Shown: in pieces, positions 3,124 through 3,576 of the stretch | Position numbering within the stretch: position 1 is the stretch's first letter | How the letters are laid out: each line of letters opens with the position of its first letter | From: Chryseobacterium sp. | Lineage (GTDB): Bacteria > Bacteroidota > Bacteroidia > Flavobacteriales > Weeksellaceae | Length of the DNA: 64,000 nt | Direction of reading: 5' to 3' | Assembly (NCBI RefSeq): GCF_029240215.1 | Contig: NZ_JARBTK010000005.1 | Span: forward strand, 19,813-83,812 | Notes under the pieces: generated by a model | What the model saw: the letters and a program-made list of their open reading frames with translations, nothing else | The model's database searches: none | What the model was told of the DNA's origin: nothing | Made by a program: the position numbers and the translations under genes

Positions 3124-3576
3124 AAAGGTTTGTCAAGCGCAGAAGATCTTTACGCCAAAAACACAATATAGACAGGCTTTTTCTTAACTCAAAAAATGAA
3201 AATTAATAAGTAAAGGTTGGAAGATAGAAGTTTTAAACATAATATAAATTTTTAAGTAAAATAAAGTTTGTCAAAGCGCAGAAGTTCTTATATCAAACAA
3301 AAATTAAGACAGGCTTTATTTTAATAGAAGTTAGAGGTTAGAAATTAGAAGTTAGTTTAAAAATTACTGATTACTAATTGCTGATTACACATAAAAACGA
3401 TGGTTCGCCGAAGTGGAAGAGTCGGGGCGGTCTGCAAAACCGTTGTGAAAACTGAGTGGGTTTGAATCCCATAACCATCTCAAATAACTAAAATGAGATT
3501 AGTTCCGAAGAAAAAATAAAAGTTTGTCGAGCGTAGAAGTTCTTATATCAAACTAAAAAAAATAATGACAAGCTTT
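3124..3576 (+). repeat. Three copies of a ~60-nt stem-closed element (3124-3181, 3260-3320, 3519-3576)
   Basis: A(A/G)GTTTGTC...GACA(G/A)GCTT stem enclosing conserved AGCGYAGAAG(A/T)TCTT. Confidence 0.75.
3399..3480 (+). tRNA. tRNA-Cys(GCA) with extended variable region
   Basis: GCGGT-CTGCAAA-ACCGT; T discriminator typical of Cys. Confidence 0.8.

What the first reader, a model, noticed from the sequence alone, without database searches (positions are those of the whole stretch)
3124..3576. Three copies of an unknown ~60-nt stem-loop RNA interleaved with tRNAs
Seen: copies at 3124-3181, 3260-3320 and 3519-3576 each have a 9-11-bp G-U-rich closing stem, a conserved 15-nt AGCGYAGAAG(A/T)TCTT on the 5' side of the loop and a variable A-rich 3' side. 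G-U wobble pairing in the stem points to RNA-level function on the + strand. CGYAG followed by TTCTT echoes the CGTA(G)/TTMCWTCG boxes of the Y-like units at 15.3-16.3 kb, so these may be ultra-minimal Ro ligands (inference).
Basis: partly seen in the sequence, partly recalled or inferred. Interest (0 to 1): 0.66.

Follow-up and report, generated by a model that had tools for sequence, protein, structure and literature searches.

The report
boxA-like hairpins inside a tRNA array
Three conserved RNA hairpins between the spare tRNA genes of this Chryseobacterium carry, in their loops, a sequence that looks like the "keep transcribing" signal (boxA) of ribosomal RNA operons, so they most likely help RNA polymerase finish the long untranslated tRNA array; they do not look like Ro60 partners.

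Summary
Three co-oriented hairpins lie at 3120-3185, 3257-3323 and 3513-3583. Each has a 11-16 bp closing stem rich in U-G pairs, a loop of about 36 nt and the motif RAG(C/A)G(C/U/A)AGAAG(A/U)UCUU on the loop's 5' side. They are the only copies in this genome. All 24 same-genus genomes searched have homologous copies. In 80 named Chryseobacterium species I found 323 model matches, about four per array, always inside the tRNA array upstream of a PF04308 (YkuK-like RNase H fold) gene. Four more genera of the family carry copies, one with an unrelated stem sequence and the same loop. No Rfam family matches.

The Ro60 reading is not supported. Five of eight element-bearing Chryseobacterium genomes have no TROVE gene, this genome's copy is frameshifted, and the model does not find the Y-like units.

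My best reading (about 45%) is a nut-like site. The invariant loop block G(A/U)UCUU(U/A)A matches the 8-nt boxA core bound by NusB-NusE. The 5' half, AGCGCAGRAG, recurs just after the tandem rRNA promoters of related genomes. The hairpins would load Nus factors so that polymerase completes the untranslated array.

No copy of the element had been noted on other DNA.

The parts
3120..3185 (+). Hairpin copy 1 (type A). Arms 3120-3134 and 3171-3185 form 15 bp with four G-U pairs. The loop is 36 nt.
   Evidence: (73.7 bits)
3257..3323 (+). Hairpin copy 2 (type B). Arms 3257-3272 and 3308-3323 form 16 bp. The loop is 35 nt.
   Evidence: inverted repeat I8; 78.5 bits
3513..3583 (+). Hairpin copy 3 (type B/C). 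The perfect arms are 3519-3529 and 3566-3576 (11 bp). A/U pairs with mismatches extend the stem outwards.
   Evidence: (78.2 bits)
3136..3152 (+). Conserved loop motif of copy 1. AGCGCAGAAG is followed by the boxA-like GAUCUUUA (3145-3152).
   Evidence: boxA core as defined in PMC3177189 and PMC13753749
3275..3291 (+). Conserved loop motif of copy 2. AGCGCAGAAG is followed by the boxA-like GUUCUUAU (3284-3291).
3530..3546 (+). Conserved loop motif of copy 3. AGCGUAGAAG is followed by the boxA-like GUUCUUAU (3539-3546).
3211..3232 (+). Heptad-like repeat (TTAGAAG type) after copy 1. It repeats the AGAAGTT start of the loop motif.
   Evidence: (D14)
3326..3365 (+). Heptad repeat array after copy 2.
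   Evidence: (D14, D17)
3592..3631 (+). Heptad repeat array after copy 3.
   Evidence: (D14, D17)
2128..4316 (+). The tRNA array that hosts the hairpins. ARAGORN tRNAs, and there are further tRNA-like units. The hairpins fill the long spacers Asn-Cys and Cys-Tyr.
4463..4948 (+). PF04308 (YkuK-like RNase H fold) gene. It is the constant gene immediately downstream of the array.

Best explanation
The hairpins are cis-acting RNA signals of the nut/boxA kind, inside a roughly 2.2-kb untranslated tRNA operon.

Proposed mechanism (inferred): as each long spacer is transcribed, the loop exposes a single-stranded boxA-like octamer, G(A/U)UCUU(U/A)A, preceded by a lineage-specific AGCGCAGAAG block. NusB-NusE(S10), and with them NusG, NusA and SuhB, bind it and stay tethered to RNA polymerase. 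The polymerase then resists Rho-dependent termination, and possibly the weak hairpin-plus-U-tract termination of the element itself. It can therefore reach the distal tRNAs and the PF04308 and RNA-repair genes. This parallels the second boxA in the 16S-23S spacer and the boxA in front of CRISPR arrays.

Shown here:
- the structure, its strand and its conservation;
- the restriction to tRNA arrays;
- the match of the invariant loop positions to the boxA core;
- the recurrence of the 5' motif in rRNA leaders.

Inferred only: transcription of the element, Nus binding and antitermination.
For: 1. The most conserved block of the whole element is G-W-U-C-U-U. G, U, C and U are invariant and one U is at least 90% conserved in 61 copies.
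2. In 230 strictly defined hairpins from 80 species, the 9-mers are GTTCTTATA (77), GATCTTTAC (68), GTTCTTACA (22), GATCTTTAG (17) and GATCTTTAA (10).
3. These fit published boxA sequences: E. coli UGCUCUUUAACA, B. subtilis AUGAUCUUUGAAA (PMC13753749) and the gamma-proteobacterial GYTCTTTAANA (PMC5725501). G2, C5 and U6 are the positions where transversions abolish function, and position 8 is U in rrn and A in lambda (PMC3177189). [quoted passage not shown]
4. A 16-nt weight matrix of the loop motif scores 16.2-20.6 bits at sites about 25-35 nt after the tandem rRNA promoters of G092 and G104. Only 20 and 7 of 7.4 million positions in the own genome reach those scores. Three of these are the hairpins, and every other listed own-genome hit lies in a long open frame except two copies of one contig-end repeat (C1:1, C6:4662) and a 39-codon stretch on C14.
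5. GCAGRAG occurs 1-4 times on the sense strand of every rrn leader examined in genera g1 and g24, against 0.14 expected. It never occurs on the antisense strand, and not at all in g26.
6. In B. subtilis the rrn boxA likewise follows a small 5' hairpin (PMC13753749).
7. The motif sits in a loop, so it is single-stranded. It is always co-oriented with the tRNAs: all 300 listed matches of 323 in 80 species are on the + strand.
8. Copy number rises with array length. There are none in arrays of 0.2-0.4 kb (g26, g40), one or two in arrays of about 1 kb (g24, g30, g48) and three to five in arrays of 2-3 kb (g1).
9. NusB and Rho genes are present in this genome.
Against:
- The lineage's own rrn boxA, AAG(A/U)UCAUUGACAU, has A at position 6. 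A matrix built from it gives the three hairpins only 2.4, 0 and 0 bits. The resemblance is therefore to the general boxA consensus and to the promoter-proximal leader motif, not to the rrn boxA proper.
- An 8-nt match is weak evidence on its own.
- The strongly conserved AGCGCAGAAG block is not part of any described boxA.
- No boxA-like site was seen at the start of the array.
- The long closing stem followed by U's is not a feature of known nut sites.
Confidence: 0.45

Rival explanations
1. The hairpins are processing or stability modules of the polycistronic precursor. The long A/U- and G-U-rich stems would be cut by RNase III or another endonuclease, or would block 3' exonucleases. The conserved loop would be the nuclease's recognition site. 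The rRNA-leader motif would then also be a processing signal.
For: - The hairpins lie only in the long spacers between tRNAs.
- The 12-16 bp stems are under selection.
- The similar motif lies in the rRNA precursor leader, which is also processed away.
- The constant neighbour is a predicted RNase H-fold nuclease (PMC3985635).
Against: - The tRNAs themselves provide RNase P and RNase Z sites, so extra processing signals are not obviously needed.
- This reading does not explain why the invariant positions coincide with the boxA core.
- PF04308-linked arrays exist without any hairpin (g26, g40).
Confidence: 0.2
2. The hairpins are stand-alone small RNAs, released by processing of the flanking tRNAs. 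Their loop would bind or titrate a protein of the tRNA-damage response, such as the PF04308 nuclease, or a toxin RNase as a decoy.
For: - The units are discrete, conserved and about 65-70 nt long, with a conserved single-stranded loop.
- They sit in an island of RNA-repair genes: Rnl2 ligase, cREC, R2K ATP-grasp, RNase T and Band 7.
- 12 of 14 element-bearing genomes in the family draw have PF04308 next to the array.
Against: - G092 and G187 have the element without PF04308, and six other genomes have PF04308 without a model match.
- Apart from PF04308, which two element-bearing genomes lack, every island gene tested is missing next to the array in some species.
- No complementary target was found in the genome.
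Confidence: 0.12
3. The hairpins are leaky intrinsic terminators, or attenuators, that grade expression along the array without any Nus involvement.
For: - An A-tract, a stem and a U-tract flank every copy.
- At low scores the covariance model picks up ordinary terminators of the window, for example 2090-2126 and 26966-27002.
Against: - Loops of 25-61 nt and AU/GU-rich stems are unlike the canonical terminators of this genome (2095-2121, 1590-1618). The terminator scan does not report them.
- A plain terminator needs no conserved loop sequence.
Confidence: 0.1
4. The hairpins are minimal Ro60 ligands related to the Y-like RNAs.
For: - By eye, UGUCG...UAGA...GUUC resembles the 5' strands of the Y-like units.
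- In genera g24 and g30 the TROVE gene lies within about 1-1.5 kb of the array.
Against: - TROVE is absent from 5 of 8 element-bearing Chryseobacterium genomes and is frameshifted here.
- The element model does not match the Y units.
- There is no bulged helix and no tRNA-like domain.
- No YrlA match covers any of the three elements; the nearest (2961-3065, 28.4 bits, threshold 69) ends about 55 nt upstream of copy 1.
Confidence: 0.03
5. The elements are DNA-level sites, such as a protein operator or a recombination site.
For: - The core AAGATCTT is palindromic in type A.
- GCGCA resembles a half-site of the TRCGYA-N7-TGCGYA boxes at four island promoters.
Against: - Stem covariation runs through U-G intermediates, which would be C-A mismatches on the other strand.
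- The complementary strand scores 19-31 bits against 40-85 for the sense strand.
- Type B is not palindromic, and only one half-site is present.
Confidence: 0.05

Closest known systems
boxA / nut sites of rRNA operons, phage lambda, suhB and CRISPR arrays (NusB-NusE loading sites)
   Same: - A single-stranded octamer with G2, U4, C5, U6 and U7. Position 8 is U (type A, as in rrn) or A (type B, as in lambda), followed by an A-rich stretch.
- It lies in the sense strand of a long untranslated operon and is repeated internally, like the spacer boxA before 23S.
- It is associated with a hairpin, as in the boxB-boxA arrangement. In B. subtilis the rrn boxA follows a small hairpin (PMC13753749, PMC3177189, PMC5725501).
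   Different: - The boxA-like block sits inside the loop of a 12-16 bp hairpin that ends in a U-tract, not beside a small boxB hairpin.
- It carries a conserved extra 5' block, AGCGCAGAAG.
- It differs at position 6 and at positions 8-12 from the lineage's own rrn boxA.
- I found no report of boxA sites inside a tRNA array in the papers I could search.
Promoter-proximal leader motif of Chryseobacterium and sister-genus rRNA operons (seen here; I know of no description)
   Same: It shares RAGCGCAGRAG, followed by (A/U)U. It is on the sense strand only and lies next to a hairpin.
   Different: - In rrn leaders it lies about 25-35 nt after each tandem promoter and is not enclosed by a long stem.
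- The sequence after the motif is not conserved there.
YrlA-type Y RNAs with Ro60 (Rfam RF02553; PMC4201824)
   Same: Both are small structured RNAs in the same RNA-repair island, closed by a stem made from the 5' and 3' ends.
   Different: - The hairpins have no tRNA-like domain and no bulged Ro-binding helix.
- They are not dependent on a TROVE gene.
- Models of one do not match the other.
Long cryptic tRNA operons (L-arrays) induced under translational stress (PMC8421152)
   Same: The host locus is a long array of spare tRNA genes next to RNA-repair genes.
   Different: A text search of that paper found no mention of stem-loops, hairpins, spacers or terminators in the arrays.

Membership tests
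boxA / nut-type Nus-factor site | An 8-nt boxA core with the critical G2, C5 and U6 (plus U4 and U7), single-stranded | tested here: met
   G, U, C and U are invariant and one U is at least 90% conserved in 61 copies. The 9-mer spectrum comes from 230 copies. The block lies in the loop. Critical positions are taken from PMC3177189.
boxA / nut-type Nus-factor site | The same signal is used in the organism's own rRNA leader and spacer | tested here: inconclusive
   The loop matrix hits promoter-proximal rrn leader sites at 16-21 bits, and GCAGRAG is enriched in leaders. A matrix of the rrn boxA proper, AAGWTCATTGAC, scores the hairpins at 2.4 bits or less.
boxA / nut-type Nus-factor site | Lies in the sense strand of a transcribed, untranslated operon | tested here: inconclusive
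   The element is always co-oriented with the tRNAs, and most copies have no start codon in the one reading frame examined.
boxA / nut-type Nus-factor site | Binds NusB-NusE and makes RNA polymerase resistant to Rho-dependent termination | not testable with these tools
   Only the presence of NusB and Rho genes could be shown.
Y RNA / Ro60 ligand | Co-occurs with a Ro60 (TROVE) gene | tested here: not met
   Five of 8 element-bearing Chryseobacterium genomes have no TROVE match. The own gene is frameshifted.
Y RNA / Ro60 ligand | A conserved bulged Ro-binding helix, a tRNA-like module and a match to the YrlA model | tested here: not met
   No YrlA match overlaps any of the three elements, even at E up to 10; the nearest ends about 55 nt upstream of copy 1. 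The stems are continuous helices. The element model does not find the Y units.
Intrinsic terminator | A G+C-rich stem, a loop of 3-8 nt and then a U-tract | tested here: not met
   A U-tract is present, but the loops are 25-61 nt and the stems are AU/GU-rich.
REP / MITE-like dispersed repeat | Many copies scattered over the genome | tested here: not met
   There are three copies, all in the array. In every genome searched all copies lie at one locus.
Any Rfam 15 family | A match to a curated covariance model | tested here: not met
   There was no match to the elements at the gathering threshold or at E up to 10.

The most novel reading that the evidence does not exclude
Each element is a self-contained checkpoint: a terminator-shaped hairpin whose loop holds a boxA. 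Polymerases that load NusB-S10 at the loop read through. Polymerases that do not are stopped at the U-tract or by Rho. Expression of the distal spare tRNAs and of the PF04308 and RNA-repair genes would then be gated by the pool of free S10 and Nus factors, that is, by the state of the ribosomes. The extra AGCGCAGAAG block, shared with the rRNA leaders, would mark a lineage-specific component of the Bacteroidota antitermination complex.
Probability: 0.15. Interest if true: 0.75.

Novelty: new variant of a known kind. Interest (0 to 1): 0.55.

Why it matters
Long arrays of spare tRNA genes are now seen as a defence against translational stress and tRNA-cleaving toxins. How a cell transcribes kilobases of untranslated, AT-rich RNA without Rho cutting it short has not been addressed for these arrays.

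If the hairpins are boxA-type sites, Nus-factor antitermination would extend from rRNA, suhB and CRISPR arrays to tRNA arrays, and to Bacteroidota, where this machinery is hardly studied. It would also give a compact, testable RNA element.

Even if that reading is wrong, this is a well-supported new RNA motif. There are over 300 model matches in 80 species, the stem is maintained by compensatory changes, and part of the motif recurs in rRNA leaders.

Tried and rejected
- **Small ORF.** The variable motif positions look synonymous in one frame (Arg codons). However, most copies have a stop a few codons upstream and no start codon, and loop lengths vary by non-multiples of three. Rejected.
- **Bacteroidota promoter (TTTG / TAnnTTTG).** The TTTG in the 5' arm changes to TCTG, CTTG or CCTG with compensating changes in the 3' arm. 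No -7 box is conserved. Rejected.
- **Sigma-70 and terminator scans.** Neither scan reports the hairpins as such; only two weak 9-of-12 promoter-like hits overlap copy 1, and the region has fewer such hits than shuffles give.
- **Phage or plasmid origin.** Only tRNA-level matches were found in phages, and none in plasmids.
- **Base-pairing target.** No complementary site was found in the genome.
- **tRNA remnant with a D-arm.** The GCG/CGC pairing is seen only in copy 1 and is not kept in orthologues.
- **Dependence on PF04308.** Two genomes have the element without the gene, and genera g26 and g40 have arrays with the gene but without the element.
- **The 11-mer RAGMGCAGRAG as a genome-wide non-coding motif.** The 29 own-genome hits are mostly coding sequence, and the reversed-pattern control is misleading.
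- **Reverse test with the rrn boxA matrix.** Negative.
- **The Glu-Leu spacer hairpin at 3967-4054.** It is a different repeat, not a fourth copy.
- **Alignment A3.** It mixed both strands and was not used.
- **Could not be done.**
  - rRNA leaders of g30 and g48: rRNA genes are not assembled in those genomes.
  - The own genome also lacks assembled rRNA genes.
  - The Burroughs and Aravind RNA-repair paper is not held in the library.

Full report
**What is there**

The window is G000:C2:19813-83812 of a 3.7-Mb genome with 34% G+C. The 80 closest loci that encode its PF04308 protein are all from named Chryseobacterium species.

Positions 2128-4316 hold a co-oriented array of at least 15 tRNA genes. 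Three copies of one element lie in the two long spacers, Asn-Cys and Cys-Tyr.
- Copy 1 is at 3120-3185, copy 2 at 3257-3323 and copy 3 at 3513-3583.
- Each has a closing stem of 15, 16 or 11 perfect pairs. A's flank it on the 5' side and U's on the 3' side.
- Each has a loop of 35-38 nt. The loop's 5' side carries AGCGYAGAAGWTCTT, and its 3' side is A-rich and variable.
- Each is followed by a short run of TTAGAAG-like heptads (families D14 and D17). These repeat the AGAAGTT start of the loop motif.
- The roughly 35 nt before the stem (AATAACTAAA(A)TG...) are also alike after tRNA-Asn and tRNA-Cys, so the duplicated unit is larger than the hairpin.

**More than chance, and RNA-like**

- With up to 2 mismatches the motif gives 5 window matches against 0.35 expected.
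- The + strand RNAs fold with z-scores of -2.9 to -3.7. The complementary strands of copies 1 and 3 fold no better than shuffles.
- In 115 distinct copies from 80 species, the 12 modelled pairs are 93.8% paired, against at most 54% for slid partners. Two neighbouring pairs run U-G (over 70%), U-A and C-G, and an outer pair flips A-U to U-A.
- U-G pairs would be C-A mismatches on the other strand. The opposite strand scores 19-31 bits where the sense strand scores 40-85.
- One copy in another genus (G106, L084:5488-5551) has a perfect 13-bp stem of unrelated sequence around the same loop core.

**Distribution**

- The genome has only these three copies.
- All 24 same-genus genomes searched have the homologous stretch, in a conserved order...Asn - hairpin - hairpin - Cys - hairpin - Tyr ... 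Glu - hairpin - Leu(UAG) - Phe - Gln.
- The covariance model R1 finds 323 matches in 80 named Chryseobacterium species. Every listed match is on the tRNA strand and upstream of the PF04308 gene.
- Within the family, copies also occur in genera g24, g30, g44 and g48, always inside the tRNA array.
- Nothing similar is found in phage or plasmid collections beyond the tRNAs themselves, and no Rfam family matches.

**Context**

The array heads an RNA-repair island. It contains:
- a PF04308 RNase H-like gene;
- two ATP-grasp genes;
- cREC;
- an Rnl2-type ligase;
- a metallophosphoesterase;
- two RNase T genes;
- a Band 7 gene;
- TROVE/Ro60 with Y-like RNAs;
- a Ter-type PRTase/TelA cluster.

Comparison of eight other genomes shows that most of these genes come and go. 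The TPR gene upstream is constant in the five Chryseobacterium genomes compared but was not detected in the three genomes of other genera, and the PF04308 gene directly downstream is found in all eight except G187 (83-99% amino-acid identity). PF04308 is an uncharacterised RNase H1-like family (PMC3985635). It is also linked to short tRNA arrays that lack the hairpin in genera g26 and g40.

**The Ro60 idea**

- In the family draw, five of eight element-bearing Chryseobacterium genomes have no TROVE match at all. So does G187 of the sister genus.
- Here the TROVE gene is split between two frames. In G047 it is one frame of 513 codons.
- The element model finds none of the Y-like units with filters off.
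- The Y-like units have an internal loop in their stem, which the hairpins lack.

I therefore set the Ro reading at about 3%.

**What the loop resembles**

The best-conserved block is G-W-U-C-U-U. In 230 strictly defined hairpins there are two main forms: GAUCUUUA(C/G/A) and GUUCUUA(U/C)A.

Published boxA sequences are:
- UGCUCUUUAACA in E. coli (PMC13753749);
- AUGAUCUUUGAAA in B. subtilis, shown there to bind NusB and to follow a small hairpin (PMC13753749);
- GYTCTTTAANA in gamma-proteobacteria (PMC5725501).

The crystal structure paper defines an 8-nt core (PMC3177189). Transversions at G2, C5 and U6 abolish function. Position 8 is U in rrn boxA and A in lambda boxA. The hairpins keep G2, U4, C5, U6 and U7. 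They vary only at position 3 and have U8 (type A) or A8 (type B).

Related complete genomes show a second link to rRNA leaders.
- Each of the two to four tandem rRNA promoters is followed, after a small hairpin, by (R)AGCGCAGRAG, which is the 5' half of the loop motif.
- GCAGRAG occurs 1-4 times per leader on the sense strand, against 0.14 expected. It never occurs on the antisense strand, and not at all in the one genus examined whose array lacks hairpins.
- The 16-nt loop matrix reaches 16.2-20.6 bits at these leader sites. Only 20 and 7 of 7.4 million own-genome positions reach such scores, three of them the hairpins themselves. Nearly all the rest lie in long open frames; the exceptions are a repeat at a contig end (C1:1, also C6:4662) and a 39-codon stretch on C14.

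**A caveat I could not remove**

The sequence at the classical boxA positions of these rRNA operons, about 100 nt before 16S and again before 23S, is AAG(A/U)UCAUUGACAU. A matrix built from it does not recognise the hairpins. The hairpin loop therefore resembles the general boxA consensus and the promoter-proximal leader motif, but not this element.

**Reading**

I take the hairpins to be nut-like sites that load Nus factors on polymerases crossing the long untranslated spacers. In this they resemble the spacer boxA of rRNA operons and the boxA ahead of CRISPR arrays (mentioned in PMC13753749).

Three observations are consistent with this:
- copy number rises with array length;
- the orientation is fixed;
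- NusB and Rho are encoded in this genome.

The closing stem with its U-tract looks like a terminator with an oversized loop, and the model weakly hits true terminators. This suggests, but does not show, that the element couples termination and antitermination.

Confidence is about 0.45. The rivals are a processing or stability module, a free small RNA, a leaky terminator and a DNA site.

**Limits**

The rRNA genes of this genome and of genera g30 and g48 are not assembled. That prevented a co-variation test between the loop motif and the leader motif across genera.

Noticed in passing
window 2210-2302 and 3663-3800: Two tRNA-like genes, an Ile-like one and Tyr(GUA), carry an insert of about 55 nt in the T-loop and share a 39-nt repeat (D16). 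ARAGORN misses both. The same kind of insert is seen in G106 (L072:860-970) and G053 (L042:1810-1960).
   Followed up: partly
window 3399-3481: tRNA-Cys(GCA) is 83 nt long with a long variable arm. It is 79% like the 5' half of the neighbouring tRNA-Tyr (D15) and gives a weak tRNA-Sec match (33.6 bits). In nearly every array it is flanked by a hairpin on both sides.
   Followed up: no
window 4463-4948: The PF04308 (YkuK-like RNase H fold) gene follows the tRNA array in nearly all genomes examined and in several genera. It is 93-99% identical among 80 Chryseobacterium species. A fixed pairing of an uncharacterised nuclease with spare-tRNA arrays may be worth a study of its own.
   Followed up: partly
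L087-L097 (rRNA operon leaders of G172, G104, G092, G047): The rRNA operons have two to four tandem promoter units. In each, a TAnnTTTG box is followed by a small hairpin and AGCGCAGGAG. The probable boxA, AAG(A/U)UCAUUGACAU, lies about 100 nt before 16S and again before 23S.
   Followed up: partly
window 13429-14987: The Ro60/TROVE gene is split into two overlapping frames (13429-14559 and 14547-14987). Relatives have one frame of 506-550 codons. This is either a frameshift or a sequencing error.
   Followed up: partly
window 3967-4054: The Glu-Leu spacer holds a different AT-rich inverted repeat: 27-nt arms, 81% complementary, with a 34-nt loop. It recurs in the arrays of other species.
   Followed up: partly
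window 2711-2777: The Asp-Pro spacer is 80-97% conserved across the genus (75% in the most divergent match) and repeats the anticodon arm of tRNA-Asp. It is probably a decayed or unconventional tRNA.
   Followed up: no
window 3211-3232, 3326-3365, 3592-3631, and 6 other places in the genome: TTAGAAG-type heptad repeats follow the hairpins. They also occur at a few other, mostly intergenic places in this genome (8 arrays of three or more units) and at many places in relatives.
   Followed up: partly
window 8885-8903, 10451-10469, 13373-13391, 15459-15477: TRCGYA-N7-TGCGYA boxes lie just upstream of TAnnTTTG -7 elements at four island promoters. The pattern search confirmed them. A related TGCGCA-CTT-TGCGTT lies at about 4403-4417, before the PF04308 gene.
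   Followed up: partly
window 11013-11089 (+) and 15063-15155 (-): Two sub-threshold matches to the Flavo-1 RNA family (33.3 and 29.6 bits; gathering score 42) lie inside the island.
   Followed up: no
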